Counted from the first letter of the stretch, positions 1-61,428 are shown. The stretch is DNA of 64,000 bases from Spirochaetia bacterium (GCA_965203055.1 OZ241863.1:864001-928000), one strand, 5' to 3'. A program made the numbers and translations. Notes: generated from the sequence alone by a model not told the origin.

Positions 1-1
1 T

Positions 2-22229: not shown

Positions 22230-22256
22230 TAGGGCGGCCGGGGGGCCGCTTCCCGG

Positions 22257-25300: not shown

Positions 25301-25878
25301 ACCGGCGGCTCCGGGAGGTTCGGGCCGAAGCGGAAGCGGAGCCGGCGGAGCCCGAACGCTTGCTGATCGTCGCCGGCCGGCCCGAGGAACGCTACGTTAC
25401 CTGCGTGCCCCTGGTCCCCCTGGCGGTGGCCGCCGGCGCCTTCGGCAATCCGCAGACCGTGGCCGCGGAGGATGCCTGGGAGTGGGTGGAGGTCGATACC
25501 GCGCGCCGGCTGCGGCCGGGCATGTTCGTGGCGCAGGTCGCCGGCCGCTCCATGGAGCCGCTGGTTCCCGACGGCGCCTATGCCCTGTTCCGTGCGCCGG
25601 TGGAAGGCACGCGGCAGCGCAAGACCGTGTTGGTTCAGCTGCGCGGCGCCGTCGACCCCGAAACCGGCGCGCGCTACACGCTCAAGCGCTACGCCGGCGA
25701 GCGGGTTGCGGACGGCGATTCCTGGCGCCACGCCAAGATCACGCTGCACCCGGTCAATCCCGAATTCGATCCCATCGTGTTCACCGCCGCGGACGCCGGC
25801 GAGCTGACCGAGGTCGCGGAGCTGGTGGAAGTGCTCGGGTTCACGGCAGCAAGGCGGGCCGGGGACGTCTCCCGATGA
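22291..25878 (+). CDS. hsdR: Type I restriction subunit R with C-terminal LexA/S24 peptidase-like domain
   Basis: Nuclease '[19 protein letters not shown]', 'PRYHQ', 'HSAGSGKS', 'IIDEAH', 'FTATPK', 'TGFDQP'; tail 'LAVAAG...GRSMEP...TLKRY'; start 22291 or 22306. Confidence 0.94.
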
Positions 25879-47167: not shown

Positions 47168-48175
47168 ATGGCGATGACGCATCTGGAGCTGATAGAGGAA
47201 TGGTTCGAGGAACGACGTGACGGTACTTGGGAACCTCGGTCCGGATTCAAGCTGGAAAGCACCGACAATCCCGGATGGCTCGCGACCATCGACACGGATC
47301 CCGTTCACCTGGAGTCGATCTCGGGACGGCGCGGAGATGAGGAAACTCGAGTGGAAGGTCAGGTGCTGGACGGAAAGGTTCGCATATTTTCGGAATCATT
47401 GACGGCGTGTATGGAGTCGATCGTGACGTTGATCATCCGGGAGCGTGAGATACGACGGCCAGGCCAGTCCAAAAGCCGCGGGTACATGACTCATACTCAG
47501 GAGATGATGTGCCTGGAAAAGATAGATGAATGGTACCGGGAGCTATGCGACGGCCTGTGGGAACATGAATTCGGGTTCAAGCTGGAAAGCACCGACGTCC
47601 CAGGATGGCTCGTTACCACCGACATGGCTCACGTCGACCTGGATTCTGTCCGGGGGTGGCGCGAAAACATCGAAACCTGTCACCGGGTGGACGTTCGGAT
47701 GGCGGACGGGAAGATCCGCATCCGGTCGGAATCATTGACTTCGTGTCTGGAATCGGTCGTAACGCTGATCATTCATGAGCAAGCACAGCGCGCGTACCGG
47801 GGCGAGCCGTCCCCATTCCTCACGACCGACGAGATCCCGGCAGGCAGTCACGTGACTCGTACGCATGAGAAGGCGCACCTGGCGTTGATGGAAGATTGGT
47901 TCAAGGAGCATCAATGCGGGCTCAAGCTGGAAGGCAGCGGCACCGCCGGATGGCTCGTGACCATCGACGCGGCTCCCGTCGACCGGGAGTCGGTCTTGAG
48001 GTTGCGCGAAATCGTGGAAGCCCGCGAAATCGTGAAAGTTCGGATGGCGGACCGGAAGATCCGCATCTGGTCGAAATCATTGACTTCGTGTCTGGAGGCG
48101 GTCGTCATGCTGATCGATTTTCATGAGCAATCAGGACAACCGAGGCGAGCTGTCCCCAAGACGGTGAGACTGTAA
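47168..48175 (+). CDS. Immunity protein with three tandem Imm53-like domains
   Basis: Three repeats of 'EW(F/Y)...(C)DG.WE...GFKLESTD.PGWL.T.D'; lower GC. Confidence 0.78.
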   Translation: MAMTHLELIEEWFEERRDGTWEPRSGFKLESTDNPGWLATIDTDPVHLESISGRRGDEETRVEGQVLDGKVRIFSESLTACMESIVTLIIREREIRRPGQSKSRGYMTHTQEMMCLEKIDEWYRELCDGLWEHEFGFKLESTDVPGWLVTTDMAHVDLDSVRGWRENIETCHRVDVRMADGKIRIRSESLTSCLESVVTLIIHEQAQRAYRGEPSPFLTTDEIPAGSHVTRTHEKAHLALMEDWFKEHQCGLKLEGSGTAGWLVTIDAAPVDRESVLRLREIVEAREIVKVRMADRKIRIWSKSLTSCLEAVVMLIDFHEQSGQPRRAVPKTVRL

Positions 48176-48311
48176 CGCGGCCCGTCCGGCCCGCCAAGTC
48201 AGGTCAGCGGTCCGGGCGGCGAGCGGGCGGTTGGCCGGCGGCCGTCCGCGCCGGTAAGGCAGCCTCGAATCGGGGGCAGGCTGCCGGTGCCGCGCCGGGC
48301 TGATCGCGCCG

Positions 48312-48599
48312 CTACGCCGGCGCCGCGGCGGTGCGGCCGAACCGCTGGGCCGCGCGCGCCCGCGCCTTGGCCGCCTCCGCCTCGCGGTTGCGCGGCGGAG
48401 CGCTGGTGACCAGCCCGTCCAACAGCCGTTGGGTGGCCCCGGCGACTTCGTCCACCGCGCGCAGGAACACGGCCGCGTTGGCGCGTGACGGCTTGCCGGC
48501 GCCGGCTACCTTGCGCACGTACTGCAGCGCGGCGGCGCGCACCTCCTCGGGCGTCGCCGGCGGCGCGAAATTGTTCAGGGGGCGTATGTTGCGGCACAC
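48312..48599 (-). CDS. DUF2277-family small protein
   Basis: 'MCRNIRPLNNFAPPATPEEVRAAALQYVRKV'. Confidence 0.85.
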   Translation of the reverse strand: MCRNIRPLNNFAPPATPEEVRAAALQYVRKVAGAGKPSRANAAVFLRAVDEVAGATQRLLDGLVTSAPPRNREAEAAKARARAAQRFGRTAAAPA

Positions 48600-48639
48600 G
48601 GTCTCGCATCATACCATATTGGGCTGGCTGGGTTGACGG

Positions 48640-48668
48640 TTGACAGACCTCTCGTACAGTCGTATCAT
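48640..48668 (+). promoter_or_regulatory. Sigma70 promoter of the RHH-methylase unit, with tandem GGTTGAC repeats over the -35
   Basis: TTGACA-17 nt-TATCAT; GGTTGAC GGTTGAC at 48631-48644. Confidence 0.7.
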
Positions 48669-48751
48669 CGGAAATGATGAAATACGACGCGTGCCCGCCG
48701 CAGCGCGATTCAACCATCCGTGAACACTCCGATTCATCGATGGTACCCAGG

Positions 48752-48886
48752 ATGAAGCGGCTGACCATCGACGTATCCGCAGAGCTGCATTCTGCCATAA
48801 AGGTGGATTGCGCCCGGAAGGGCATAAAGATGGCGGACGCCATCCGCGACCTGCTCGCAAGCGAATTTGGCGAGGGTGCGCAGTAG
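48752..48886 (+). CDS. Ribbon-helix-helix (ParG/CopG-like) DNA-binding protein
   Basis: '[35 protein letters not shown]'; alternative ATG at 48740. Confidence 0.8.
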
Positions 48887-49641
48887 TGCCTCATCGGCAG
48901 TTGACTCTCCTCACCGAGGCCGAAGAACGTACTCCATCCGGCCGCAAGAGACCGGATGGCGTCGCTACGACGGATTTGGTCCTGTCGGCGTATGTCGGGA
49001 ATAATGCGGATGTCTTCCCTTCGGTGCTGCGTCTTCATGTACCGGACGGAGCGAAGATCGCAGACGTTACCTACGGGAAAGGAGTATTTTGGCGCAAGAT
49101 AGACGTCGAAAGATACGATCTTCATCCATCTGACATAGCCGATGGAGTAGACTGCCGTGATCTGCCCTACGAGGATGCGTCGTTTGACTGCCTGGTCTTC
49201 GATCCTCCGTACATGGAGGGATTCTTCCGCAACGACAACTCGATAAAGGCTGGAGCGGGGACCCACAACACATTTCGCGACCACTACTCCAACGGACATG
49301 AAGCGCCAAGAAAAGGCGGCGGCAAATGGCATGCGGCGGTCGTGGAGCTATACACGGCCGGCGGCCGTGAAGCCTATCGCGTGTTACGGGATGGCGGTAT
49401 TTTCATAGTCAAGTGCCAGGACGAAGTAAGCGCCAACAGACAAAATCTTACACACGTTGAAGTTATCAACGCATATGCGGAAACGGGATTCTTCTGCAAG
49501 GATCTGTTCGTCGTGGTGCGGCCCAACAAGCCTGGAATGAGCCGGGTCATCAAGCAGGTTCACGCCCGTAAGAACCACTCCTATTTTCTGATATTCGTGA
49601 AGATACCGGTTGGAAAGACGGCCTCTCAGATGCGGTTCTGA
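48886..49641 (+). CDS. Small amino-DNA methyltransferase (N6A/N4C)
   Basis: Motif I-like '[10 protein letters not shown]', motif IV 'FDPPY', '[12 protein letters not shown]'; GTG overlaps the RHH stop. Confidence 0.85.
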
Positions 49642-50219
49642 ATTATCTCGTTCATCAGTGTGAACGGCTCTTCCAAGAACGGAGGTTGCGGAGGCCAACT
49701 GACGTTTACCAACGTAGCGAGCAAGTGCCGACGCTGGTAATCGGTGTACTTCCGGTAACTCGACGTGGGAAGATCGTCGTTCTTGGCGAACACGAAGCGC
49801 CAGATGCCTGCAAAGGCGAAGACGTTGACTGCCAGTATGTCGAACTCTCCTTTCAGCAGGCAGGTGGTGGTAACGGCGCTGCCGTCCGGCAACGTGACTT
49901 CCCGACGATCGCTGGCATCGACTTGCGCCTTGCCGGTCCAGCCGTCGTCGGTCCTCCTGATCGTGGCGGTCTGCAGCGACTTGGACTCGAAGATGAAATC
50001 GTGCTCTTTGTAGACAACTATCCGGTCACCCTTCTTCTTTCGGTCATGGTCGTCATGCTTGCCTACATGCGAAATACCTTTACCGGATAACCAGAGTTGT
50101 TCGAGCTTCATCTCGGCCAGATAGCCAATGATCATGCCGCGCAGACTCGGATTCCGGTCGATGACCTTGGTGAGGTCCTCCGCCGTTATGTCCCATCGTT
50201 CAAGTATTGAGTCAGCCAT
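49626..50219 (-). CDS. Putative type II restriction endonuclease
   Basis: 'GYLAE...KGDRIVVY...FESKSLQ' PD-(D/E)XK-like; convergent with and overlapping the methylase; low GC. Confidence 0.7.
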
Positions 50220-50980: not shown

Positions 50981-51267
50981 CGCGATCTCCCTCGACAGGT
51001 TGCACGGCATGACGCAGCGCCGCAAGGCGGAGAATCGAACGCGGCGGCGCCGCGGCGCCTGGGCGGCCGCCCGCGAGATCGGATGTTGGACGCTCCGCGG
51101 GCGAGCGTGGTAGAGTGCCGGCAGCCGGCAGCCGCCTACGCTGCCCGCAATCATACGCCGTTCCTGTTTCCGGCGGCGAGTTCGAGGAGGACTGCTCCAT
51201 GCACCTGACGGATACGCTGGCAGGCAACCGGGACGTGTTCCCGCTGCCGGCGCTGAAACGCATCCTA

Positions 51268-51277
51268 CCCCCCCCCC
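51268..51277 (+). repeat. C10 homopolymer in a short RBS-led ORF (51199-51306)
   Basis: CTA-CCCCCCCCCC-TGA; longest homopolymer noticed in the window. Confidence 0.85.
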
Positions 51278-51464
51278 TGATCGACGAGTACGACAACCTT
51301 ACCTGACGCCTCCCGGCGTTTCGGACGCGGACGCCAATCACGCCTCGCCGACGGCGGCCGCTTCTAGCTCTAGCGCAACTTCCTCTCCACGCTCCACGGC
51401 ACCGGGAACGGCTGCTTGGCACGGCTGTTCGTCACCGGCGGGCCGCCGACCGGCAGGGGTCCGC

Positions 51465-53633
51465 TTGCTCGCGCTGTTGATGGCCGCCGGTATCGCCCTG
51501 CTGGCGTGCACGCAAGCGGCGCGGCCGGCGGCAACGACCGGCTCCGGCGGCGCGGGCGCGGGGACCGGAGGGACCGGCGGCGGCGAGTCACCGGCCGCGC
51601 CGACCCCGACCCCGCAGCCGGCCGAGAAGAGCTGGCCGATCGGTGAAGATGCCTTCGATGACGAGGCGAACCTGGGCGCCACGACGATCCGCTCCGCGCC
51701 GTTTGCCTGGGACGGGATCACCGGCGACAAGGTGCGCGTGTCGATCGGCGGCCACGATCTGCCGTTCACGAGCACCACGAACGAGCCGGTCTTCGCGTCC
51801 GACATCAGCGGTGCGGAGTGGTCGGTTGCCGCCGAAGTCAGCGCGGGATCCATCGTGCTCGTGCTCACCGCCCCGGATCAGTCGGAAGACACCGATTTCG
51901 TCGAGTCGGTCGGTATTACGAACCCGGGCAGCGGCTACACCTCGGTCCCCACCATGTCCTTTTCAGCGGCGCCATCCGGCGGCACCACGGCAACCGGCAC
52001 CGCAGTGGCAAGCGGTCGCGTCGATTCCGTGTCGGTCTCGAATGCCGGCAGCGGCTACGCCTCGGTCCCGACCGTGACCTTCTCGGCGGCGCCGTCCGGC
52101 GGCACCACGGCGACCGGCGCCGTGACGGGCAGCGGCAGCGTCGATTCGGTGACGGTCTCGAACGGGGGGAGCGGCTACACCTCGGCCCCTGCCGTGGCCT
52201 TTTCGGGTGGCGGCGGCAGCGGCGCCGCGGCCACCGCGGCGCGTAGCGGTTTCGTAGATTCGGTGACGGTCACGAACGCCGGCAGCGGCTACACCTCGGC
52301 CCCCACGGTGTCCTTTACGGGTGGTGGGGGCAGCGGCGCCGCCGCCACCACGGCGCTGGACCAAGAGGTAGGGCCGGTAACGGTCACGGACGCCGGCAGC
52401 GGCTACACCTCGGTCCCTACGGTGTCGTTTTCGGGCGGCGGCGGCAGCGGCGCCGCCGCCACTGCGATCGGGCCGCTTGGGGTCGATTCGGTGACGGTCA
52501 CGAACGTCGGCGGCAGCTACACCTCGGTCCCTGCGGTGTCGTTTTCGGGTGGCGGCGGCAGCGGGGCCGCCGCTACTGCGATCGGGCCGCTTGGAGTCAA
52601 TTCCGTGTCCGTCTCGGCCGCCGGCAGCGGCTACACCTCGGCCCCCACCGTGGCCTTTTCGGCAGCGCCGTCCGGCGGCTTCACGGCGACCGGCACCGCG
52701 TCAGTGGTGAGCGGGCAGGTCGTGGGAGTGATCCTCTCGAACGTGGGGAGCGGCTACACCTCGGCCCCCACCGTGACCTTCTCGGGCGGCGGCGGCAGCG
52801 GCGCCGCCGCCACCGCAACGCTGCGTACCACCAGTGGCGTCCTCTCGGTGTCGGTCACGACCGCCGGCAGCGGCTACACGTCGGCCCCCGCCGTGGCGTT
52901 TTCGGGCGGCGGCGGCAGCGGAGCCAGCGCCACCGCGGCGCTGCGCACTACCAGCGGCATCGACGGAGTGACGGTCACGAACGGCGGCACCGGTTACGCG
53001 TCGGCCCCCACCGTGGCGTTTTCGGGCGGCGGCGGCAGCGGGGCCAGCGCCACCGCCGCGCTGAGCGTTACCAGTCGCATCGCCGGAGTAACGGTCACGA
53101 CCGCCGGCAGCGGCTACACCTCGGCCCCCACCGTGGCCTTTTCGGCAGCGCCGTCCGGCGGCACCACCGCCGCCGGCACCGCGGCGCTGGACTACGAGGT
53201 AGGGACAGTGACGGTCACGACCGCCGGCAGCGGCTACGCGTCGGCGCCCGCGGTGTCCTTTTCGGGCGGCGGCGGCAGCGGGGCCGTCGCCGCCGCGGTC
53301 ATGGACTACGGGGTCGGACCGGTGGCGGTCACGAACCCGGGGAGCGGCTACGCGTCGGCGCCGACGGTGACCTTTTCAGCCGCGCCGTCCGGCGGCACTA
53401 CGGCCGTGGGCAGCGCGGTCATGGACTACCGGGTACGGTCGGTGCGGATCACGAACCGGGGGAGCGGCTACGCGTCGGCGCCCACCGTGACCTTTTCGCC
53501 GGCGCCGGCCGGCGGCACCACCGCGACCGGCATCGCAACGCTGGCGAAGAGCGGCAACGATCAGAGCCAGAACCTGTATTGGGCGCGCCAAACGCTGGCA
53601 GGCAAGCAGCTTCTGGTGCAGGTAGGGGAGTGA
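51465..53633 (+). CDS. Surface lipoprotein with 14 [12 protein letters not shown] repeats
   Basis: Lipobox-like 'IALLAC', Pro/Gly tether, ~38-41 aa repeats '[19 protein letters not shown](GGGG/AAP)SG..ATA'; start uncertain. Confidence 0.85.
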
Positions 53634-53636
53634 TGA

Positions 53637-55610
53637 ATGGTACCTCCCCCATGCAGGACGCTTCCGGCGCTGTTGCTGGCCGCCGGTATCGCCGCCCTGA
53701 TGGCGTGCGCGCCGGCGGCGCGTCCGTCCGCCGCGACTGCCGGCCCGGCCAACGGGGGAGCGGGGGAGCCAGGAGGTAAGCTACCACCGAGCGAGCCGCC
53801 GCCAACCCCGCAGCCGGCGGAGAAGCGCTGGACGATCAGCGCGGCTGACTTTGGTGACGGCGCGAACCTGTTGAGCGAAACGTCCAACCGTTCCGCGCCG
53901 TATGCCTGGGAGCGGATCACCGGCGAGGAGGTGCGCGTTTCGATTGGCGGAAACGAGCTGCCGTTCACGAGCACGAGCGCCAAGCCGGTCTTCGCGTCCG
54001 ATCTCTCCGGCGCGGAGTGGACGGTTGCCGCCGAGGTGCGGGCGGGGGCAGTGGAGCTGGTCCTCACCGCCCCGGATCAGTCGGGCGCCGCCGACACGGT
54101 TGAGTCGGTGACGATCACGAACCCGGGGCGCGGCTACACGGCGGACCCGACCGTGACCTTTGCGGCGCCGCCGTCCGGCGGCACCACGGCAACCGGCACT
54201 GCGGCGAGGTCCGGCTACGTCGATTCGGTGACGATTACGACCGCGGGGGACGGCTACCCGGCGGTTCCGACCGTGACGTTCGGGGCGCCGCCGTCCGGCG
54301 GCACTACGGCGAGCGGCGCCCCGGTGGGGTCCGGCTACGTCGATTCGGTGACGATTACGACCGCGGGGAGCGGTTACCCGGCGGTCCCCGCGGTGACGTT
54401 TTCGGCGGCGCCGTCCGGCGGCGCCACGGCAACCGGCTCCGCGTTGGGGTCCCGGCACGTCGATTCCGTGACGATCGGGACCGCCGGGAGCGGCTACCCG
54501 TCGGTCCCCACCGTGACCTTTTCGGGCGGAGGGGGCAGTGGCGCGGCCGGCACCGCGGTGCTGCAAAGCGGCGTAGCGTCGGTGACGCTCACGAACCGGG
54601 GGGCCTTCTATACCTCTGACCCAACCGTGACGTTTGGCGCTCCGCCGCCCGGCGGCACCACCGCGACCGGCACCGCAACGCGACGATCAGAAGTATGGAC
54701 CGTGTCGATGACGAACGGGGGGAGCGGTTACACCTCCGCTCCAACCGTGACGATTGGCGCTCCCCCGTCCGGTGGCACCCGGGCAACCGGCACCGCGGTG
54801 ATCAGTGGCGGTCAAGTGACTTCCGTCACCATCACGAACGGGGGGCGCGGCTACACCTCTGTCCCTTCGGTGACGTTTTCGGGAGGAGGAGGCAGCGGTG
54901 CGGCCGGCAGCGCGCAGGTGGGAACTGACCAACTGGATGGCGTGACGCTCGCGAATCCGGGGAGCGGCTACACGTCTGCCCCTTCCGTAACGTTTTCGGC
55001 CTCGTCGCTCCCCTCTCATACGGCCGCCGGCACCGCGGTGCTGCAAAGCGGCGTAGCGTCGGTGACGCTCACGAACGGAGGGAGCGGCTATACTTCGGCC
55101 CCGACCGTGACCTTTGCGGCAGCGCCAAGCGGCGGCGCCACGGCAGCCGGCACCGCGGTGCTGCGCTACGGCGTAGCGGAGGTGACGGTTACGGACGGAG
55201 GGAGCGGCTACACTTCGGCCCCGACCGTGACCTTTGCGGCGGCGCCGAGCGGCGGCGCCACGGCCGCCGGTACCGCGGTGCTGCGCTACGGCGTAGCGGA
55301 GGTGACGGTCACGGACGGAGGGAGCGGCTACACTTCGGCTCCGACCGTGACCTTTGCGGCGGCGCCGAGCGGCGGCACCACGGCCGCCGGCACCGCGGTG
55401 CTGCGCTACGGCGTAACGTCGGTGAGGGTCACGAACGGAGGGAGCGGTTACACCGCGGTCCCGACCGTGACGTTTTCGGCGCCGGCCAGCGGTACCCGTG
55501 CGACCGGCACGGCAAAGCTGGCCGAGGGCGGCTACGATCAATACCAGAACCTGTATTGGGCGCGCCAAACACTGGCAGGCAAGCAGCTTCTGGTGCAGTT
55601 GGCGGATTAG
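53637..55610 (+). CDS. Paralogous surface lipoprotein with 12 [12 protein letters not shown] repeats
   Basis: Lipobox-like 'IAALMAC'; same N-terminal domain and identical C-terminal '[18 protein letters not shown]'. Confidence 0.87.
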   Translation: MVPPPCRTLPALLLAAGIAALMACAPAARPSAATAGPANGGAGEPGGKLPPSEPPPTPQPAEKRWTISAADFGDGANLLSETSNRSAPYAWERITGEEVRVSIGGNELPFTSTSAKPVFASDLSGAEWTVAAEVRAGAVELVLTAPDQSGAADTVESVTITNPGRGYTADPTVTFAAPPSGGTTATGTAARSGYVDSVTITTAGDGYPAVPTVTFGAPPSGGTTASGAPVGSGYVDSVTITTAGSGYPAVPAVTFSAAPSGGATATGSALGSRHVDSVTIGTAGSGYPSVPTVTFSGGGGSGAAGTAVLQSGVASVTLTNRGAFYTSDPTVTFGAPPPGGTTATGTATRRSEVWTVSMTNGGSGYTSAPTVTIGAPPSGGTRATGTAVISGGQVTSVTITNGGRGYTSVPSVTFSGGGGSGAAGSAQVGTDQLDGVTLANPGSGYTSAPSVTFSASSLPSHTAAGTAVLQSGVASVTLTNGGSGYTSAPTVTFAAAPSGGATAAGTAVLRYGVAEVTVTDGGSGYTSAPTVTFAAAPSGGATAAGTAVLRYGVAEVTVTDGGSGYTSAPTVTFAAAPSGGTTAAGTAVLRYGVTSVRVTNGGSGYTAVPTVTFSAPASGTRATGTAKLAEGGYDQYQNLYWARQTLAGKQLLVQLAD

Positions 55611-55879: not shown

Positions 55880-57946
55880 ATGAGGAACCGAGTGCTCGCG
55901 CTCACCTGCTGGGCGCTGGGAATCGCGCTGGCGGCAAGCCCGCTGTACGCGGGCGGTACCGAAGAGGGAACGCAGGGCGGCGAGGCCGCCGCCATGGCCG
56001 CGACCGGCAGCGACATCGTCAAGGTGGTGGGCCGCTACACCGTGCGGGAGAGCTGGCTCAACCCGCCGACCGCGTCGCAGGTCGGCATCACCAGCTTCCG
56101 GGAGGCGCCGATGCTCGCCGCCATGGTGCAGGCCGGAGACCTGCCGCCGGTGGAGGATCGGCTGCCCGACGATCCGCTGGTGCTGGAGCCCTATGCGGAG
56201 GTGGGCAAGTACGGCGGCGAGCTGCGCGTGGCGCGCACCGGTCCCGGGGACTACGGCGACATGCACCGCGGAGCCAAGACCTTCCTGTTCCGCGCCGACC
56301 CGACGCTGAACGAAATCATCCCCTACGGCGCCAAGGGCTACGAGCTGTCCGCCGACCGCACCGTGCTCACCCTCTACCTGCGCGAGGGGATGAAGTGGTC
56401 GGACGGCATGCCGTTCACCACCGCCGACTTCATGTGGGTGTACGACAACCTGTTCCAGAATCCGGAGATTCCCAGCCAGCGCATCCGCTGGTCGCTGGGC
56501 GGTGAGCTGTCCAAGTGGGAGGCGGTCGACGACTACACGCTGCGCATGACCTATTCCGCGCCGCTGACGCCGACCTACCTGATCCCGCTGCTGAACTTCC
56601 ACCGCACCCGGCAGGGCAACATCTACACGCCCGTGCACTATGTCGAGCAGTTCCACGCCGACTTCAATCCGAAGGCCGAGGAGCTCGCCAAGGCGGAAGG
56701 ATTCGAAAACTGGATCGCTCACCTGAGCGCCCGCATGTCGACCGCGCCTACGGAGCCGTATCCGCAGCCGAAGCTGGCCGCGTGGGTGATGGAGAGCCGC
56801 GACTCGACCGGCAAGTTCAGCATGCGCAATCCCTACTTCTTCGCGGTGGACAGCGCCGGCAACCAGCTTCCCTACATCGATAGCCTGCGGGCGGTCTACT
56901 TCGCCGACAAGCAGGTGGCGATTCTGAACATGATGCAGGGCAAGGTGGACGTCGGCGGGCGCCTGATGGATCCCAGCAGCTTCGCCCTGTACAAGCAGAA
57001 CGAAGAGGTGGGCGGCTACAACTTGCGCGAATGGCAGGACACCAAGACCAGCCGCGTCATCTTCATGTCGAACATGAACCATCCCGATCCGGTCAAGGGG
57101 CCGGTCATCACTGACAAGCGGTTCCGGCAGGCGCTGTCGCTGGCGCTCAACCGGCCCGAGATCAACGAGTTCGTGTTCCTCGGTCTGGCCACGCCGGCGC
57201 AGTACACGGTCGATCCGGGCGCGGCGTTCTACGACGAGGCGTGGGCCCGGTCGTACGCCGATTACGACCCGGAAGGGGCCAAGGCCAAGCTGGACGAGAT
57301 GGGCATGACCGACCGTGACGGCGACGGCTGGCGCGAGGCGCCCGGCGGCGAGGAGTTCATCCTCAACATGCGCCCGCACACCAGCTCGGTGCTCGGCACC
57401 ATGGGCGACAACATCGCCGAGCTGACGCGCACCTACTGGGAGGAGATCGGCATCCGAATCAACTTCAAGCAGATCGCCCAGGAGTTGCAGTGGGAGCTCC
57501 TGCAGGCCAACGAACTGGACATTCTGGTCTGGGTCTCCGAGAATTACATGCCGAGCCGGCTGTCGTCGCCGCCGCCGTTCGGCCTCGACGTGATCATGTA
57601 CTCCACCGAGTGGCGCAAGTGGTACGCGCATCAGCGCTGGGTGGACGGCGGCCGCCAGGGCGACGAGCCGGTTATGGGCACCGAGCCGCCGGCCGAGTGG
57701 AAGCAGTGGCTGGACGACTGGCACGCCTGGGTCGATGCCCCGAACGCCGAGGAGTTCAACCGTCTCGGCGCCAGGGTGTGGGCGTTCCAGGCGGAGCAGC
57801 TGCCGGTCATCGGCACGGTGGCCAAGGCGGTGCGGCCGATCATCATCAACAACCGCATCAACAACGTGCCGGACGTGCTGCCGTTCTCGTTCGAGAGCTT
57901 CCTCTGGGTGCAGACCCTGCCGGCGCAGTGGTACATCGACGAGTAG
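55880..57946 (+). CDS. ABC solute-binding protein, family 5
   Basis: Signal peptide; 'GDLPPVEDRLP', 'LREGMKWSDGMPFTTAD', 'RNPYFFAVD..GNQLPYID'; paralog of 6009-7985. Confidence 0.93.
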   Translation: MRNRVLALTCWALGIALAASPLYAGGTEEGTQGGEAAAMAATGSDIVKVVGRYTVRESWLNPPTASQVGITSFREAPMLAAMVQAGDLPPVEDRLPDDPLVLEPYAEVGKYGGELRVARTGPGDYGDMHRGAKTFLFRADPTLNEIIPYGAKGYELSADRTVLTLYLREGMKWSDGMPFTTADFMWVYDNLFQNPEIPSQRIRWSLGGELSKWEAVDDYTLRMTYSAPLTPTYLIPLLNFHRTRQGNIYTPVHYVEQFHADFNPKAEELAKAEGFENWIAHLSARMSTAPTEPYPQPKLAAWVMESRDSTGKFSMRNPYFFAVDSAGNQLPYIDSLRAVYFADKQVAILNMMQGKVDVGGRLMDPSSFALYKQNEEVGGYNLREWQDTKTSRVIFMSNMNHPDPVKGPVITDKRFRQALSLALNRPEINEFVFLGLATPAQYTVDPGAAFYDEAWARSYADYDPEGAKAKLDEMGMTDRDGDGWREAPGGEEFILNMRPHTSSVLGTMGDNIAELTRTYWEEIGIRINFKQIAQELQWELLQANELDILVWVSENYMPSRLSSPPPFGLDVIMYSTEWRKWYAHQRWVDGGRQGDEPVMGTEPPAEWKQWLDDWHAWVDAPNAEEFNRLGARVWAFQAEQLPVIGTVAKAVRPIIINNRINNVPDVLPFSFESFLWVQTLPAQWYIDE

Positions 57947-57972
57947 TCACCGTCCAGGGATAAGGAATTGCA

Positions 57973-58004
57973 GGCGGCGCCTCCCCGGCGCGGGAGGCGC
58001 CGCC
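57973..58004 (+). terminator. GC-rich stem-loop between the SBP and permease genes (attenuator or mRNA stabiliser)
   Basis: GGCGGCGCCTCCC-cggcgc-GGGAGGCGCCGCC, perfect 13-bp stem, no U-tract. Confidence 0.7.
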
Positions 58005-58017
58005 GTGAGAGAGCACG

Positions 58018-59013
58018 ATGGTCGACTATCTGATCCGCCGCTTCATGAACATGCTGCTGGCGCTGGTGGTGATCTCCTTCCTGTCGTTCGTGATCATCCA
58101 GTTGCCGCCGGGAGACTTCCTGACCAGCTACATCACCCGCCTGCGCGCCCAGGGCGAGGCGGTGAGCGAGGAGATGGTGGCGAGCCTGTCCCTGCAATAC
58201 GGGCTGGACAAGTCGTTCCTGGGCCAGTACTGGTCGTGGATCACCAACTTCGTGCAGGGCGACATGGGGCAGTCGTTCCGCTACCAGACCCCGGTCAACG
58301 AGCTGGTGTGGGAGCGGATCGGGCTGACCTTCGTCATCTCCCTTTCGTCGCTGCTGTTCATCTGGATCGTGGCCTTCCCGGTGGGCATCTACGTGGCGGT
58401 GCGCCAGTATTCGCCGGGCGATTACGCGGCCACCTTCTTCAGCTTCATCGGGCTGGCGGTTCCCAACTTCATGCTGGCGCTGGTGCTGATGTACGTGAGC
58501 TTCCGCTACTTCCGGATTGACGTTGGCGGCCTGTTCTCGCTGGAGTATCAGGACGCGCCGTGGTCGTTCGGCAAGCTGCTCGATCTGCTCGGCCACCTGT
58601 GGATTCCCACCGTCGTGCTCGGTTCGGCCGGCACCGCCGGCCTGGTGCGCATCATGCGCGCCAACCTGCTCGACGAGCTGCGCAAGCTGTACGTGATCAC
58701 GGCGCGGGCGAAGGGTCTGGCGGAGAATCGGATCGTCATGAAGTATCCGGTGCGGGTGGCGCTCAACCCGTTCATCAGTACGGTCGGCTGGACCCTGCCG
58801 CAACTGATTTCCGGCGCCACCATCACCGCGGTGGTGCTCAACCTGCCCACGACGGGGCCGCTGCTGATCGACGCGCTGTTGGCGCAGGACATGTTCCTGG
58901 CCGGCAGCTTCATCATGCTGCTGAGCATCCTCACCGTCATCGGCACGCTGATATCGGACCTGCTGCTGATCGTCGTCGACCCGCGCATCCGGTTCGAGAG
59001 GAAGACGGGCTGA
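58018..59013 (+). CDS. Peptide-type ABC permease (DppB/OppB-like)
   Basis: 'IIQLPPGD', 'GDMGQSF', 'YVITARAKGL', 'DPRIR'. Confidence 0.94.
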   Translation: MVDYLIRRFMNMLLALVVISFLSFVIIQLPPGDFLTSYITRLRAQGEAVSEEMVASLSLQYGLDKSFLGQYWSWITNFVQGDMGQSFRYQTPVNELVWERIGLTFVISLSSLLFIWIVAFPVGIYVAVRQYSPGDYAATFFSFIGLAVPNFMLALVLMYVSFRYFRIDVGGLFSLEYQDAPWSFGKLLDLLGHLWIPTVVLGSAGTAGLVRIMRANLLDELRKLYVITARAKGLAENRIVMKYPVRVALNPFISTVGWTLPQLISGATITAVVLNLPTTGPLLIDALLAQDMFLAGSFIMLLSILTVIGTLISDLLLIVVDPRIRFERKTG

Positions 59014-59017
59014 GCGG

Positions 59018-60205
59018 ATGGCCGAGGCAGACCGCGAGCGCGCCGCCGGCACGGTGGTCGAAACGCGCGAGCTGGTGGTGCCGCGCGTGCCTGAGGCGGC
59101 GGCCGCGGACGACCGCGACGACCGCGCCTTCTACGCCTCGCAGTGGCAGCTCATGCGGCGCCGCTTCTTCCGCCACAAGGTGGCGGTCGGGGCGACGCTG
59201 GCGCTGGCCGCGCTCTATCTGGCGGCGCTGTTTTCGCCGTTCCTGAGCCCCCACGATCCGCTGCAGCGCAGCCTCGCCTACAAGGAGGCGCCGCCGCAGG
59301 TGGTGCGCGTCTTCGCGGAGGGCCGCCTGCGCCGGCCGTTCGTCTACCCGCTGGTGAGCGAGATGGACCGGGAGACCTACGAGAACGTCTACCAGGAGGA
59401 CCGGACGCAGCGCTACCCGGTGCGGCTGTTCGTGCGCGGGTTCTCATACCGGCTGTTCGGGCTGTTTCCCTCCGACCTGCACCTGTTCGGCACCGGCGTC
59501 GAGGGGGTGCCGGTCCATCTGTTCGGCACCGACTCCATTGGCCGCGACGTGTTCTCGCGCACCCTGTACGGTTCGCAGATCTCGCTGTCGGTCGGCTTGG
59601 TGGGGGTGGTGATCAGCTTCTTCCTGGGCATTCTGATCGGCGGCGTGGCCGGCTTCTTCGGCGGCACCGTGGACGAGGTGATCCAGCGCCTGATCGAGAT
59701 CATCATCGGGATTCCGAGCCTGCCGCTGTGGATGGGGCTGAGCGCGGCGCTGCCCACCGGCTGGCCGGTGGTCCGAGTGTACTTCGCCATCACCGTGATC
59801 GTGTCGCTGATCGGCTGGACCAGCCTGGCGCGGGTGGTGCGCGGCAAGTTCCTGTCCCTGCGCGAGGAGGACTTCGTGGTGGCGGCCAAGCTGGCCGGCC
59901 GGCGCGACGTGCCCACCATCTTCCTGCACATGGTGCCCTCGTTCCTCAGCCACATCATCGCCTCGCTGACCCTCGCCATCCCGACCATGATCCTGGCGGA
60001 GACCGCGCTCAGCTTCCTCGGCCTGGGCATGCAGCCGCCGGCGATCAGTTGGGGCGTGCTGCTCAAGGCCGCGCAGAACGTGCACTCCATCGCCCTGGCG
60101 CCGTGGCTGATGATCCCGGGCCTGTTCGTGATCGTCACCGTGCTCGCCTTCAACTTCGTCGGCGACGGCCTGCGCGACGCCGCCGACCCCTACGCCTCCC
60201 ACTGA
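59018..60205 (+). CDS. Peptide-type ABC permease (DppC/OppC-like)
   Basis: 'FGTDSIGRDVFSR', 'ETALSFLGLG', 'GDGLRDAADP'. Confidence 0.94.
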   Translation: MAEADRERAAGTVVETRELVVPRVPEAAAADDRDDRAFYASQWQLMRRRFFRHKVAVGATLALAALYLAALFSPFLSPHDPLQRSLAYKEAPPQVVRVFAEGRLRRPFVYPLVSEMDRETYENVYQEDRTQRYPVRLFVRGFSYRLFGLFPSDLHLFGTGVEGVPVHLFGTDSIGRDVFSRTLYGSQISLSVGLVGVVISFFLGILIGGVAGFFGGTVDEVIQRLIEIIIGIPSLPLWMGLSAALPTGWPVVRVYFAITVIVSLIGWTSLARVVRGKFLSLREEDFVVAAKLAGRRDVPTIFLHMVPSFLSHIIASLTLAIPTMILAETALSFLGLGMQPPAISWGVLLKAAQNVHSIALAPWLMIPGLFVIVTVLAFNFVGDGLRDAADPYASH

Positions 60206-61428
60206 CGGGCCGACCAGATGACGAGTCGCAGCTCGCTGTCGTCGATCAAGGTGTACTCCGGCGGCCGCCCGGACAACTCCTGGCTCTCCCGGAGAATGAC
60301 AGGAACGCCGTCGCCGCGCCGGTCCATGAGGTAGGAGCGCCCGATCCCTGCCGGCGCGGGACAGCGGCCGAGCAGTGAGACGATCAGTTCGTTGCGGTTG
60401 GCCTGCCGCAAGTGCAGGCTGTCGGTAGTCAGCGTGTTGACCAGATCCCCAGGTACGTAGAGCTCCAGCCGATTGGCAAACAGGTGCAGGCGAACGCGTG
60501 TCCCCGCCATCGAGTAATCCCGGTGCGCCACCGCGTTCACCAATGCCTCGAACACCGCCCGGTCGCTGAATTGCGGGCGCTCGACCCGCGCCGTCACCTT
60601 CGTGGCGCGGACGAGCATGTTGCGGCGCACGAAGTGCAGCGCCTCCTCGATCTGCGCGTCCAGCGGTCCTTCCAGATCGCGCGCGTCGTTCTGGTAGTTC
60701 ACGTCGTGGCGTTCGCCGGCGTAGCTCACCGTCTGAATCTGCGCGTGCGGCAGCCACTGCTGCGGGTTCCGCGTGCAGAGCAGGGCTCCGGCCAGCGACA
60801 GCGGCGCGTCGCCGCCGTCAGGGTCTTCGCTCACGATTCGCAGCTTGCGCAGGGTATCCTCGCTCAGCGGGGTATCGTCGCGCAGGAATCGCCGCGTCAG
60901 CGCGTCGTCAAGATACCGCGGCGAGCTTCCCGGCACGGCCGATTCGTCGAAGCGGATCACTCGACTCTGGCTGCGATTCTGAAACAGACGCGCCAACGAC
61001 TCCGGTTGCAGCTCCCGCGTCGAATCTCCGACCCGGCGAAAATATCCGCCGGGGCTTCGGTGAACGAACAGACTGCGGGGCACGTCGACGCGAATGATCG
61101 CTACCGGATCGCCGTCATCTCGCCGTACTTCGACGATGCGAATGTCGACGTCGTCCAGCGGCGGCTTGATGGTATCGGTGCAGATGTTTCTGATCCAGAC
61201 TACGGCGGTGTCCAGCCGCGGCGCCGGCACGCCGACGATCTCACGCGTGCCGTCATCGACGCCCAGCACGAAGGTTCCGCCGCGGCCGTTGGCAAAGGAC
61301 GCCAGGGTGTCGGCTACGCGGTGGCTCCTGGGTTCGGTGACGCGGCCCCCGGAGAAGAATATCCGTTTGTATTCAAGACGGCCGTCCTCTCCGAGGCGGA
61401 TGCGCCGGAGGAGGTCAGTGTCGATCAT
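60190..61428 (-). CDS. Schlafen/AlbA_2 domain + HATPase_c_4 (RecG-C-like) protein
   Basis: 'GEDGRLEYK', 'SFANGRGGTFVLGVDD', 'EALVNAVAHRDY', 'RNELI', 'RGDGV'. Confidence 0.88.
   Translation of the reverse strand: MIDTDLLRRIRLGEDGRLEYKRIFFSGGRVTEPRSHRVADTLASFANGRGGTFVLGVDDGTREIVGVPAPRLDTAVVWIRNICTDTIKPPLDDVDIRIVEVRRDDGDPVAIIRVDVPRSLFVHRSPGGYFRRVGDSTRELQPESLARLFQNRSQSRVIRFDESAVPGSSPRYLDDALTRRFLRDDTPLSEDTLRKLRIVSEDPDGGDAPLSLAGALLCTRNPQQWLPHAQIQTVSYAGERHDVNYQNDARDLEGPLDAQIEEALHFVRRNMLVRATKVTARVERPQFSDRAVFEALVNAVAHRDYSMAGTRVRLHLFANRLELYVPGDLVNTLTTDSLHLRQANRNELIVSLLGRCPAPAGIGRSYLMDRRGDGVPVILRESQELSGRPPEYTLIDDSELRLVIWSARQWEA

What the first reader, a model, noticed from the sequence alone, without database searches (positions are those of the whole stretch)
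51897..55520. Mirror-symmetric ('out-and-back') repeat arrays in two tandem lipoproteins
Seen: both proteins have an even number of GSGY repeats (14 and 12), and the linkers between repeats are symmetric about one central short turn. Protein 1 linkers: ASG, GSG, RSG, LDQ, GPL, GPL, [VVSGQV turn ~52704-52721], RTTSG, RTTSG, SVTSR, LDY, MDY, MDY. Protein 2 linkers: RSG, GSG, GSR, LQS, RRS, [VISGGQV turn ~54798-54818], GTD, LQS, LRY, LRY, LRY. Each linker class on the outgoing arm is matched in number by one class on the returning arm. The array sits between a conserved N-terminal block ending LTAPDQS and a short C-terminal piece ([18 protein letters not shown]) identical in both proteins. Known: [10 protein letters not shown] repeats occur in phage structural proteins and some bacterial surface proteins. 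Inference: repeat i pairs with repeat n+1-i, giving nested two-repeat beta domains and a hairpin rod of 7 or 6 modules, with both termini folding into a lipid-anchored base. This would be a length-tunable surface stalk or adhesin.
Basis: partly seen in the sequence, partly recalled or inferred. Interest (0 to 1): 0.85.

Follow-up and report, generated by a model that had tools for sequence, protein, structure and literature searches.

The report
Fold-back repeat rods in variable lipoproteins
Two neighbouring genes encode lipid-anchored proteins built from 14 and 12 copies of a phage-type 40-residue repeat that most likely run out and back as a hairpin rod, and they belong to a large, probably switchable gene family of uncultured spirochaetes.

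Summary
W1 (51465-53633, 722 aa) has 14 repeats of 38-41 aa and W2 (53637-55610, 657 aa) has 12.

Relatives were found in only four Spirochaetia MAGs (49 loci), each with many paralogues. Repeat number is even (2-14) in 49 of 55 sequence clusters.

Support for a hairpin is indirect but comes from several sources:
- One turn-like junction lies at the centre of the array.
- AlphaFold secondary structure is symmetric: long unbroken strands cross every junction except the central one.
- Small linkers on the first arm mirror aromatic linkers on the second.
- Each arm was amplified separately, yet arm lengths stay equal.
- Paired cysteines link repeat 1 with repeat 4 of 4, and repeat 2 with repeat 4 of 6.

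No contact map could be read, and the arm-pairing prediction never ran. Six clusters are odd and a few proteins have unequal arms.

New here: 38 of 40 homopolymers of 10 nt or more in the loci lie just upstream of, or inside the 5' end of, family genes. W1 has C10 at 51268-51277. This suggests phase variation.

The repeat matches phage virion proteins. There is no Pfam, NCBIfam or PDB match. Function is unknown.

The parts
51268..51277 (+). Poly-C tract (C10), 188 nt upstream of the W1 start codon. Candidate slipped-strand switch.
   Evidence: It is the only homopolymer of 8 nt or more in the 64-kb window. The same position holds C15 and C31 upstream of copies 1 and 3 in L001. Across the family, 38 of 40 tracts of 10 nt or more lie within 400 nt upstream of an N-domain.
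51465..53633 (+). W1: lipoprotein gene, 722 aa, 14 repeats (7 out, 7 back).
   Evidence: ORF; GC3 0.87; repeats. The TTG start is the first canonical start in frame, although residues resembling a signal-peptide n-region (GRRPAGVR) lie in frame upstream of it.
51498..51509 (+). W1 lipobox LLAC (Cys15). It is followed by a Gly/Pro-rich tether up to about residue 45.
   Evidence: Read from the translation.
51600..51893 (+). W1 N-terminal beta domain, about 98 aa, ending LVLTAPDQ.
   Evidence: Family HMM envelope. No Pfam or PDB sequence match. pLDDT 85-97 for the equivalent part of the W2 model.
51900..52718 (+). W1 outgoing arm, repeats 1-7.
52704..52721 (+). W1 central turn VVSGQV.
   Evidence: It falls in the longest period of the array, 41 aa.
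52719..53552 (+). W1 returning arm, repeats 8-14.
53553..53630 (+). W1 C-terminal cap, containing [18 protein letters not shown].
   Evidence: The motif is present in all complete family members. It is predicted as a helix plus a strand in both models.
53637..55610 (+). W2: lipoprotein gene, 657 aa, 12 repeats (6 out, 6 back). It starts 3 nt after the W1 stop, with GGGGAG 7 nt before the ATG.
   Evidence: W2 is 56-57% identical to W1 and 95% identical to L001.
53697..53708 (+). W2 lipobox LMAC (Cys24).
53796..54092 (+). W2 N-terminal beta domain.
54099..54815 (+). W2 outgoing arm, repeats 1-6.
54798..54818 (+). W2 central turn VISGGQV.
   Evidence: In the W2 model the strand breaks here (E384-390 / E393-401), whereas the other confidently modelled junctions are single strands of 17-20 residues.
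54816..55532 (+). W2 returning arm, repeats 7-12.
55533..55607 (+). W2 C-terminal cap: helix 635-646 and strand 650-655 in the model.

Best explanation
W1 and W2 are two co-transcribed members of a lineage-specific multigene family of lipoproteins in uncultured high-GC Spirochaetia.

Each protein has the same layout:
- a lipid-modified Cys;
- a flexible Gly/Pro tether;
- a beta domain of about 100 aa;
- an even number (2-14) of a 38-41 aa three-strand repeat, which is also found in phage virion proteins;
- a conserved C-terminal helix plus strand.

Most likely mechanism (inferred). The first half of the array runs away from the base. One tight turn reverses the chain. The second half runs back, so repeat i lies level with repeat n+1-i, and the C-terminal piece returns to the N-terminal domain. 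The c-strand of one repeat continues into the a-strand of the next as one long strand, which makes the rod stiff. The long strand k of the outgoing arm would lie antiparallel to long strand n-k of the returning arm, so their linkers face each other. Rod length would then change in steps of two repeats, roughly 3 nm per level. That gives about 17-20 nm for W2 and W1; this figure is my estimate from strand lengths.

The family is probably switched on and off by slippage of long poly-C tracts before the start codon, or of poly-G tracts just after the lipobox. The result would be a variable set of envelope rods of different lengths.

What is shown: the anatomy, the parity, the family distribution and the homopolymer association.

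What is inferred: the hairpin contacts, the disulfides, the switching, surface exposure and function. The function could be a coat, spacer or adhesin, possibly related to phage pressure.
For: Anatomy and lipoboxes.

Family distribution: the 49 loci all lie in 4 Spirochaetia MAGs (16, 15, 13 and 5 loci) out of a scan of 185,579 species genomes. The representative search found 48 proteins in 1.84 billion.

Parity:
- 81 of 87 proteins and 49 of 55 clusters have an even count, spread over 4, 6, 8, 10, 12 and 14 repeats.
- 27 of 29 further short members are even, including n=2.

Parity is not a by-product of the duplication unit. Single-repeat amplifications occur in each arm separately.
- In W2, B10-B11 are 97% identical.
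- In L008, the outgoing block r1-r4 is 86-95% identical within itself, the returning block r7-r9 is 94-97%, and the two blocks are 69-78% identical to each other, yet the arms are 5|5.

Arms by linker reading are equal in W1, L001 copy 1 and L012 (7|7), in W2, L006, L010, L023 and L026 (6|6), and in L005 and L008 (5|5). L002_+5832 is 7|7 if the centre is taken inside its triplicated central repeat.

Mirrored classes in 36 cluster representatives:
- Q-Q pairs: 9 observed, against 1.7±1.1 (full shuffle) or 3.3±1.3 (shuffle of the returning arm only).
- Small-aromatic pairs: 31 observed, against 7.1±2.3 or 23.1±1.8.
- 0 of 5000 shuffles reach either observed value.

AlphaFold2 models:
- The 6-repeat relative P0017 has mean pLDDT 81.9 with the repeats mostly above 90. 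Long strands are 194-210 and 234-250, then a turn at 280-285, then long strands 315-331 and 355-371, then helix 405-416 and strand 420-425.
- W2 has high pLDDT only at the N-domain plus repeats 1-2 and at repeats 11-12 plus the C-terminus, and its strand breaks at the central turn.

Cysteines:
- 90 of 93 proteins have an even number (48 have none in the array or C-terminus).
- Pairs between different repeats are r1-r4 (n=4), r2-r3 (n=4), r2-r4 (n=6), r4-r5 (n=8) and r6-r7 (n=12).
- In a simple height model, 8 of 11 pairs are at identical height in a hairpin and all are within 0.8 of a level. In a linear rod, 8 of 11 are at least 1.2 levels apart.

A stand-alone two-repeat unit in Xanthomonas phage X1 resembles the central pair.

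Homopolymers.

Precedent for poly-G phase variation of spirochaete envelope genes: PMC7864442, passages read.
Against: No coordinates, PAE or contact map were available, so no contact between the arms was seen. The pTM values are modest (0.41 and 0.56), and the middle of the W2 model has low confidence.

Exceptions to parity and symmetry:
- Odd counts occur in 6 of 55 clusters (n = 5, 5, 7, 7, 9, 11) and in 2 of 29 short members.
- Arms are unequal in L004 (4|6), L007 (6|3) and L001_+8448 (6|5).

Statistical tests that did not support the model:
- BLOSUM similarity of mirrored linkers equals the shuffles (z=0.06), while adjacent linkers are the more similar.
- Mutual information between repeat bodies did not single out the mirror register.
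- HMM attempts to locate the turn or the change of arm were ambiguous.
- The longest period lies at the centre in only 16 of 36 representatives, against 5.4 expected.

The linker classes were defined after I had seen the pattern. Paralogues also share descent, so the shuffle counts overstate independence.

The n=2 members have a returning-arm type linker as their only junction.

The cysteine argument assumes disulfides and an a-up, b-down, c-up strand order. The r1-r4 case rests on a single protein.

Homopolymer lengths in assemblies are error-prone, so the 6 of 7 out-of-frame poly-G genes may be assembly errors.

The W1 tract lies 188 nt before the start codon, and no sigma-70-like promoter was found there.
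Confidence: 0.65

Rival explanations
1. A linear rod of tandem two-repeat domains. Adjacent repeats (1,2), (3,4) and so on each form one domain of about 80 aa, which alone would explain the even counts. The mirror pattern would be inherited from an ancestor.
For: PHROG matches often span 75-80 aa. Foldseek against BFVD gives local matches of 78-84 columns at 0.8-2.4 Å rmsd. Phage X1 carries exactly two repeats.
Against: Linkers do not alternate with period 2.

Only the central junction is broken into a hairpin in both models; the others are single long strands.

The turn junction would fall inside a domain for n=6 and n=14, but between domains for n=4, 8 and 12.

None of the 11 inter-repeat cysteine pairs lies within one (2k-1, 2k) domain.

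Amplifications are by single repeats.
Confidence: 0.12
2. An extended single-pass array that buries its hydrophobic face by forming oligomers, as phage fibres do, with no intramolecular return. Parity and symmetry would be historical accidents of a few ancestors.
For: The same repeat occurs in phage baseplate, fibre and virion proteins, in arrays of about 7, 6 and 2 repeats without the N- and C-terminal caps. Odd and asymmetric family members exist.
Against: Even counts hold across seven size classes with independent amplifications.

The central turn and the C-terminal cap are conserved in all complete members.

In a single-pass chain the cysteine pairs r1-r4 and r2-r4 would be 2-4 levels apart, unless they bridge two antiparallel chains.
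Confidence: 0.13
3. A closed ring (propeller or toroid) of 40-aa blades, fastened by contact between the N- and C-termini.
For: The repeat length of about 40 aa is propeller-like, and the N- and C-terminal pieces co-occur.
Against: A range of 2 to 14 repeats in steps of two does not fit one ring geometry.

There is no Pfam propeller match.

A ring has no place for long strands that cross repeat boundaries.

Foldseek found no PDB chain with E<=0.001 and the best TM-score was about 0.1.
Confidence: 0.03
4. Not real genes, or an assembly artefact of a repetitive region.
For: The arrays are repetitive and the relatives come from MAGs. The W1 start codon is uncertain.
Against: GC3 is 0.87 and 0.82, like the neighbouring genes.

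The pair is 97.75% identical to an independent assembly over 4.4 kb.

The domains are conserved in 4 genomes and in many metagenome proteins.
Confidence: 0.02

Closest known systems
Phage virion repeat families: PHROGs 701, 19630, 460, 5342 and 708. These are annotated as structural, 'head closure', tail-fibre and baseplate-wedge proteins, mostly of T4-like cyanophages.
   Same: The 38-41 aa repeat is the same. HMM E-values reach 4.8e-97. 243 phage records match by tblastn. 49 BFVD models match with E<=0.001, and two consecutive repeats superpose at 0.8-2.4 Å.
   Different: The window proteins have a lipobox, their own N-terminal domain and C-terminal cap, even repeat counts and a single central turn. 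They sit among chromosomal genes, not phage genes. No structure or function is known for the phage repeat: there is no Pfam family and no PDB match.
Streptococcal antigen I/II adhesins (SpaP, BspA).
   Same: The design principle is shared. Two repeat regions of one chain associate to form a long stalk, and the N- and C-terminal parts lock together at the cell-proximal end (PMC7732690, passages read).
   Different: AgI/II pairs an alpha-helical region with a polyproline region and carries a globular V domain at the tip. It is sortase-anchored in Gram-positive bacteria. Here both arms are the same beta repeat, the tip is only a turn, and the anchor is a lipid. There is no sequence relation.
Phase-variable Tpr and other outer-membrane protein genes of Treponema pallidum (poly-G tracts).
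   Same: It is a paralogous envelope gene family in a spirochaete, with homopolymer tracts in promoters or ORFs whose length sets expression (PMC7864442, abstract and passages read).
   Different: Those tracts are 7-12 nt, while the ones here reach 31 nt. The proteins are unrelated to Tpr. Switching has not been shown here.
Size- and phase-variable lipoproteins of mycoplasmas (Vlp, Vsa) and the repetitive beta lipoprotein OspA of Borrelia.
   Same: They are lipid-anchored, repeat-built envelope proteins. In Vlp and Vsa, repeat number changes the length and expression switches. OspA shows that repetitive antiparallel beta sheets can stand as a lipoprotein.
   Different: There is no sequence similarity, and no fold-back or parity rule is known to me for those proteins.

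Membership tests
Bacterial lipoprotein (signal peptidase II substrate) | An N-terminal hydrophobic signal peptide ending in a lipobox [LVI][ASTVI][GAS]C. | tested here: met
   W1 has ...IALLAC (Cys15) and W2 has ...AALMAC (Cys24). Most full-length relatives also have one. W1 lacks a charged n-region if the TTG at 51465 is the true start.
Bacterial lipoprotein (signal peptidase II substrate) | Lipid modification and cleavage by Lgt and Lsp. | not testable with these tools
   This needs biochemistry.
Phage virion repeat proteins (PHROG 701 / 19630 / 460 / 5342) | A significant match of the repeat to the family profile. | tested here: met
   W1 matches 16 PHROG families and W2 matches 18. The best E-values are 4.8e-97 and 6.9e-63.
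Phage virion repeat proteins (PHROG 701 / 19630 / 460 / 5342) | Encoded in a phage or prophage among virion genes. | tested here: not met
   Neighbours in the window are a DNA alkylation repair gene, a methylase-like gene and an Opp-type ABC transporter. The 69 neighbours scanned at 35 related loci include no virion genes.
Phase-variable contingency genes | A long simple-sequence tract in the promoter, the 5' UTR or the 5' coding region. | tested here: met
   40 of 62 family genes have a tract of 8 nt or more within 700 nt upstream of the N-domain. 38 of 40 tracts of 10 nt or more in 717 kb lie in the 3.5% of sequence just upstream of N-domains. W1 has C10 at 51268-51277.
Phase-variable contingency genes | Tract length differs between copies or strains at the same position. 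| tested here: met
   The window has C10, its 97.75%-identical counterpart in L001 has C15, and the third L001 copy has C31. Assembly error cannot be excluded.
Phase-variable contingency genes | Expression switches with tract length. | not testable with these tools
   The only hint is that 6 of 7 genes with a coding poly-G have the lipobox out of frame with the N-domain.
Antigen I/II-type fold-back stalk | Alanine-rich helical repeats paired with proline-rich repeats, and a V domain at the tip. | tested here: not met
   No such regions are present. The array is one beta repeat throughout. The likeness is in design only.
Ig-like / FN3 repeat adhesins (Big, Lig type) | Pfam Ig-like, Big or fn3 domains. 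| tested here: not met
   No Pfam family reaches its cut-off for either protein or for 37 N-domains. The only trace is weak matches (E about 1e-6 to 1e-5) of the N-domain to proteins rich in FN3 or Big_13 domains.
Beta-propeller (WD40-like 40-aa blades) | A fixed blade number that closes a ring, and a propeller profile match. | tested here: not met
   Repeat number ranges from 2 to 14. There is no Pfam match and no Foldseek PDB match.
Known anti-phage defence proteins (PADLOC) | A match to a PADLOC model. | tested here: not met
   W1 and W2 match 0 families.

The most novel reading that the evidence does not exclude
The family defines an undescribed protein architecture: a single-chain beta 'zipper rod'. 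Each level would be built from one outgoing and one returning copy of a phage-derived three-strand repeat. Long strands would run from level to level, and the mirrored linkers would face each other. Length can then change only in steps of two repeats (2 to 14 seen).

A genome carries 15-20 such rods of different lengths. It would switch them individually through poly-C and poly-G tracts of up to 31 nt, giving a combinatorial, length-graded envelope coat.

The repeat comes from phage baseplate and fibre proteins, and the genes often sit beside defence and mobile genes. The coat may therefore act in the contest with phages, as a shield or decoy for receptor-binding proteins, rather than as a host adhesin.
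Probability: 0.4. Interest if true: 0.85.

Novelty: new variant of a known kind. Interest (0 to 1): 0.72.

Why it matters
If the hairpin reading is right, this is a natural, modular beta rod whose length is set by the number of repeat pairs. It would come with an internal record of how such a fold grows: one repeat is added on each arm, and the odd intermediates are rare.

That is of interest for protein design and for understanding repeat-protein evolution. It would also give a first structural handle on a repeat that is widespread in cyanophage virion proteins but has no Pfam family and no solved structure.

Biologically, it would add an uncultured, high-GC spirochaete lineage to the organisms that run large phase-variable envelope families. 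The homopolymer tracts here are unusually long and sit at two different kinds of position.

Both claims can be tested directly with standard structure prediction, EM or SAXS, and amplicon sequencing.

Tried and rejected
- Complex prediction (N-domain plus repeats 1-2 of W2 against repeats 11-12 plus the C-terminus). I handed it in 30 times. The queue was full each time, and one search gave no usable answer. The job never ran, so there is no result either way.
- Turn-HMM to locate the centre. The best and second-best hits were often within a few bits, and it frequently picked the last repeat. Not used.
- Out-arm and back-arm HMMs with a change-point. The result was dominated by the long versus short loop type. 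Uninformative.
- BLOSUM similarity of mirrored linkers. No excess over shuffles (z=0.06). So the symmetry is one of classes and positions, not of sameness.
- Mutual information between repeat bodies at registers -2 to +2. It was raised at all registers and did not discriminate.
- ESM Atlas. No usable hit for W2. For P0015 the top score was 0.82 (DUF6252), which is at chance level. No structure search was possible.
- PDB by sequence with W1, with the repeat profile and with the N-domain profile. Nothing better than E=0.079.
- Foldseek against the PDB with both models. 0 matches with E<=0.001.
- NCBIfam and PADLOC. No match for W1 or W2.
- Conserved neighbour gene (69 ORFs at 35 of 49 loci). No common partner was found.
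- The listing of cluster members.
- Paper searches for the repeat or the family found nothing relevant: 'GSGY'+'repeat'+'phage', '[10 protein letters not shown]' (0 papers), 'Spirochaetia'+'lipoprotein'+'homopolymeric'+'paralogous'.
- Propeller and artefact readings were rejected, as set out under the rival explanations.

Full report
WHAT IS THERE

The region holds two tandem ORFs on the + strand: W1 (51465..53633, 722 aa) and W2 (53637..55610, 657 aa). Third-position GC is 0.87 and 0.82, like the neighbouring genes.

W2 starts 3 nt after the double stop of W1 and has GGGGAG 7 nt before its ATG. The two genes therefore look co-transcribed. Both proteins begin with a hydrophobic signal sequence ending in a lipobox: LLAC in W1 (Cys15) and LMAC in W2 (Cys24).

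After the lipobox each protein has four parts:
- a Gly/Pro-rich stretch;
- a conserved domain of about 100 aa ending LVLTAPDQ;
- 14 (W1) or 12 (W2) contiguous repeats of 38-41 aa (DNA periods 114 and 120 bp);
- a C-terminal piece containing [18 protein letters not shown], identical in both.

The repeat consensus is [20 protein letters not shown], then [11 protein letters not shown] or GGGGSGAAA, then TA, then the linker. The invariant positions are V4, G10, Y13, P17 and A31. W1 and W2 are 56-57% identical.

WHAT IT MATCHES

Neither protein reaches any Pfam cut-off, and neither has an NCBIfam match. Sequence searches of the PDB found no solved relative. This holds for the whole protein, for a profile of the 26 repeats and for a profile of 37 N-domains.

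The repeat itself matches phage families strongly. W1 matches 16 PHROGs and W2 matches 18, with E-values down to 4.8e-97. These families are annotated as virion structural, 'head closure', tail-fibre and baseplate-wedge proteins. tblastn finds 243 phage records, mostly T4-like cyanophages.

A giant virion protein of Synechococcus phage S-MbCM6 holds arrays of about 7, 6 and 2 repeats. A 216-aa protein of Xanthomonas phage X1 holds exactly two repeats: a long-loop repeat ending GGVRATGTAV, a short linker, then a short-loop repeat. That is very like the central pair of W2.

THE FAMILY

The N-domain defines a small family. The representative search found 48 proteins in 1.84 billion. Two further searches found 33 proteins of 397-1264 aa and 78 shorter ones.

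In one genome per species (185,579 species), the family appears at 49 loci, and all of them lie in four Spirochaetia MAGs (16, 15, 13 and 5 loci). Some loci carry tandem copies, giving 64 ORFs with an N-domain in the loci and window together.

L001 is 97.75% identical to the window over 51173-55610 only. Its flanks differ, and it carries a third copy that includes about 300 bp of upstream sequence.

I scanned 69 neighbouring ORFs at 35 loci and found no conserved partner gene. Many neighbours are of the defence or mobile type:
- AAA-ATPase_like with PDDEXK_9 (5 cases);
- AAA_22 / AAA_35 (4 cases);
- DUF4143 (2 cases);
- HsdM, McrBC, HsdS and Eco57I-type methylase;
- DUF1156 (2 cases) and DUF499;
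- a transposase.

ABC-transporter permeases also recur as neighbours.

PARITY

I iterated a repeat HMM over all complete unique members, meaning those with both the N-domain and the C-terminal motif. There were 93 of them. I dropped six before counting: L014_-2 (1 repeat), P0039 (2 repeats), and four proteins scored as 3 repeats with a gap of about 50 aa where a fourth degenerate repeat fits.

The remaining 87 have these repeat counts:

| Repeats | Proteins |
|---|---|
| 4 | 19 |
| 5 | 2 |
| 6 | 29 |
| 7 | 2 |
| 8 | 20 |
| 9 | 1 |
| 10 | 3 |
| 11 | 1 |
| 12 | 6 |
| 14 | 4 |

So 81 of 87 proteins are even. At 85% identity these fall into 55 clusters, of which 49 are even. The binomial P is 9e-10 if clusters are treated as independent, which they are not fully. 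Of 29 further complete short members, 27 are even: n=2 in 4, n=4 in 19 (3 of them scored as 3 repeats with a gap), n=6 in 4.

The duplication unit does not force parity, because each arm amplifies by single repeats:
- B10-B11 of W2 are 97% identical at the DNA level, and B09 is 92% identical to both.
- In L008, r1-r4 are 86-95% identical to each other and r7-r9 are 94-97% identical. The two blocks are only 69-78% identical to each other, yet the arms are 5|5.

SYMMETRY

Reading the long paralogues repeat by repeat shows a common order:
1. small G/S/P linkers (xSGx, GPGS);
2. a TRRSE-type linker;
3. a repeat ending GGTRATGTA followed by the turn (V/I-x-S/G-G-x);
4. a short-loop repeat ending ATLRT;
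5. an LQ(S/T)G linker;
6. linkers with an aromatic residue (LRYG, MDYG, MQYE);
7. the last repeat, and then the cap.

By this reading the arms are equal in:
- W1, L001 copy 1 and L012 (7|7);
- W2, L006, L010, L023 and L026 (6|6);
- L005 and L008 (5|5).

L002_+5832 has 14 repeats and a triplicated central repeat. It is 7|7 if its centre is taken at linker 7. With that centre, RQSG at L4 mirrors LQSG at L10, and TRRSE at L5 mirrors LGRTR at L9.

Shorter members show the same pattern. L011 (which is P0017) reads VISSS TAYYY GFGGA TAYYY VISSS. L016 reads VLSGD FLQSG TSGGG VLPTG VLSGD. L013, L015 and L002_+11977 have Q(S/T)G linkers on either side of the centre.

I defined three linker classes after seeing this pattern: Q, aromatic, and small-G. 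In 36 cluster representatives the mirrored pairs came out as follows:

| Mirrored pair | Observed | Full shuffle | Shuffle of returning arm only |
|---|---|---|---|
| Q-Q | 9 | 1.7±1.1 | 3.3±1.3 |
| small-aromatic | 31 | 7.1±2.3 | 23.1±1.8 |

None of 5000 shuffles reached either observed value.

Several results count against the symmetry:
- Plain BLOSUM similarity of mirrored linkers equals the shuffles (z=0.06), and adjacent linkers are the more similar.
- Mutual information between repeat bodies does not pick out the mirror register.
- The longest period is uniquely central in only 16 of 36 representatives, against 5.4 expected.
- L004 is 4|6, L007 is 6|3 (9 repeats, with three near-identical recent copies in the first arm), and the third gene of L001 is 6|5 with a disturbed r4/r5 junction.

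A mirrored order of classes cannot arise from tandem duplication alone, which gives direct order. Where the mirrored order holds, it points to selection on pairs of positions.

PREDICTED STRUCTURE

AlphaFold2 on W2, with a 36-sequence family alignment, gave mean pLDDT 68.6 and pTM 0.41. Confidence was high only for the N-domain plus repeats 1-2 and for repeats 11-12 plus the C-terminus.

The 6-repeat relative P0017, with 24 sequences, gave mean pLDDT 81.9 and pTM 0.56. Its repeats were mostly above 90, and all five models scored 80.5-81.9.

The tool returns secondary structure but no coordinates. In both models the c-strand of one repeat, the linker and the a-strand of the next repeat form one continuous strand of 17-20 residues. 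Only the central junction is broken into two strands with a turn:
- P0017: long strands 194-210 and 234-250, turn at 280-285, then long strands 315-331 and 355-371.
- W2: strands 384-390 and 393-401 on either side of the central turn.

The C-terminus is predicted as a helix followed by a strand.

Foldseek found no PDB chain with E<=0.001 for either model, and the best TM-score was about 0.1. It found 49 BFVD phage models with E<=0.001. Several are local matches of 78-84 columns at 0.8-2.4 Å rmsd.

CYSTEINES AS CONTACT REPORTERS

W1 and W2 have no cysteine beyond the lipobox, but 45 of the 93 relatives have cysteines in the array. Counting the mature part, 90 of 93 proteins have an even number. 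This suggests disulfides in an exported protein.

The pairs that join different repeats are:
- r1:24 with r4:15 in a 4-repeat protein (L026_-8098). Its nearest relative, at 57% identity, has neither cysteine.
- r2:12/13 with r3:24 in 4-repeat proteins.
- r2:37/40 or r2:9 with r4:11 in 6-repeat proteins (P0020, P0023, P0051).
- r4:21-23 with r5:19-20 in the 8-repeat group, at the inward-facing positions of the b-strands.
- r6:30-32 with r7:12 in 12-repeat proteins.

I assumed the strand order a-up, b-down, c-up and a reversal of the chain at n/2. Under that model 8 of 11 pairs sit at the same height and all are within 0.8 of a level. In a one-way rod, 8 of 11 pairs are 1.2-4 levels apart. None of the 11 pairs falls within a single domain made of repeats 2k-1 and 2k.

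This is an inference, because disulfides were not shown. It is, however, independent of the linker analysis.

PROPOSED MODEL (INFERENCE)

Each level of the rod holds one outgoing and one returning repeat. The long strand k (c of repeat k plus a of repeat k+1) lies antiparallel to the long strand n-k, so their linkers face each other at a local two-fold axis.

This would explain three things:
- why mirrored linkers are either the same (LQSG/LQSG, VISSS/VISSS) or complementary (small against aromatic);
- why the count must be even;
- why the N-domain and the C-terminal cap always occur together.

At about 8-9 residues per level, the rod would grow by roughly 3 nm per repeat pair.

Of 62 family genes, 40 have a homopolymer of 8 nt or more within 700 nt upstream of the N-domain. 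Of the 40 homopolymers of 10 nt or more in all 717,413 bases of the loci and window, 38 lie within 400 nt upstream of a family N-domain. Those upstream stretches make up 3.5% of the sequence. Tract lengths are 10-31 nt.

There are two kinds of tract.

1. Poly-C just before the ribosome-binding site or the start codon:
   - C12-GGAG-7 nt-ATG in L028;
   - C14 directly before the ATG in L025;
   - C30 24 nt before the ATG in L040.

2. Poly-G of 12-22 nt inside the gene, right after the lipobox (…PAQ-GGGGGG…). This kind occurs in seven genes of one genome. In six of the seven the lipobox is out of frame with the N-domain.

The window has exactly one homopolymer of 8 nt or more: C10 at 51268-51277, 188 nt before the start of W1. 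The same site holds C15 in L001 and C31 before the third L001 copy.

Homopolymer tracts of this kind set the expression of envelope protein genes in Treponema pallidum (PMC7864442, abstract and passages).

Three cautions apply:
- Homopolymer lengths in assemblies are unreliable.
- No promoter was found near the W1 tract.
- Switching was not shown.

COMPARISON AND VERDICT

The repeat is that of the phage families, but the proteins are not phage proteins. The fold-back design resembles the stalk of streptococcal antigen I/II, where two repeat regions of one chain pair up and the termini lock at the base (PMC7732690, passages). The structural elements are entirely different, however. The genetics resemble the phase-variable envelope families of spirochaetes and mycoplasmas.

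I found no paper on this repeat or family.

I rate the hairpin rod as the most likely reading, at about 0.65. The switchable multigene family is well supported as anatomy but unproven as function. The role of the proteins (coat, spacer, adhesin or phage-related) is open.

Noticed in passing
window 14736-18325 (+), inside 12725-25878: A Gabija pair sits between hsdM (12725-14710) and hsdS (18984-20297) / hsdR (22132-25878) of a type I restriction operon. GajA is at 14736-16430 (PADLOC E 4.5e-187) and GajB at 16427-18325 (E 3.9e-229). Its third-position GC is 0.69-0.70, against about 0.9 for the flanking genes.
   Followed up: partly
window 9652-12655: An AAA-ATPase_like/PDDEXK_9 gene (9652-11358, - strand) lies next to a Mutator-family transposase (11402-12655). 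The same AAA-ATPase_like/PDDEXK_9 type is a neighbour of family genes at five related loci.
   Followed up: partly
window 60190-63976 (-): A Schlafen/AlbA_2 protein with weak pAgo-associated PADLOC hits (60190-61476) lies next to a large ATPase that matches the PADLOC model Ppl (E 8e-98; 61415-63976). This is another defence-type pair, just downstream of the Opp-type transporter.
   Followed up: partly
window 48808-50219: This is a lower-GC stretch (0.604 in 48001-50000). It holds an ORF with a DPPY motif typical of DNA methyltransferases (48808-49641, + strand; my reading of the translation). It also holds a convergent, overlapping 197-aa ORF (49626-50219, - strand). Neither has a Pfam or PADLOC match. 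It may be an orphan restriction-modification pair.
   Followed up: partly
window 47168-48175 (+): A protein with two Imm53 (polymorphic-toxin immunity) domains (E 5.9e-25). No toxin gene was identified next to it.
   Followed up: no
window 51354-51470: W1 has no ATG, GTG or TTG upstream of the TTG at 51465. Yet the in-frame upstream residues (…[12 protein letters not shown]) look like a signal-peptide n-region, and they are conserved before all three L001 copies. The true start, or an unusual initiation, is unresolved.
   Followed up: partly
L001 (OZ241907.1 560499-574469) against window 51173-55610: The gene pair is 97.75% identical to L001, but the flanks do not align. L001 also has a third tandem copy that carries the same upstream region of about 300 bp. 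The unit therefore behaves like a duplicating cassette.
   Followed up: partly
L002, L004, L005, L006, L007, L021 (OZ241907.1): Six of the seven family genes with a coding poly-G tract (G12-G22) have the signal peptide and the N-domain in different frames. These are either 'off' phase variants or homopolymer errors of the assembly.
   Followed up: partly
proteins P0071, P0073: The weakest hits of the N-domain search are FN3-rich animal-type proteins. This hints that the N-domain may be an FN3/Ig-like sandwich. I did not use these proteins further.
   Followed up: no
window 55880-60205 and 1-7985: Two Opp/Dpp-type peptide ABC transporter sets lie in the window (SBP_bac_5 at 55880-57946 and at 6009-7985, each with permeases). 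Permease genes of this type are also neighbours of family genes at five related loci.
   Followed up: no
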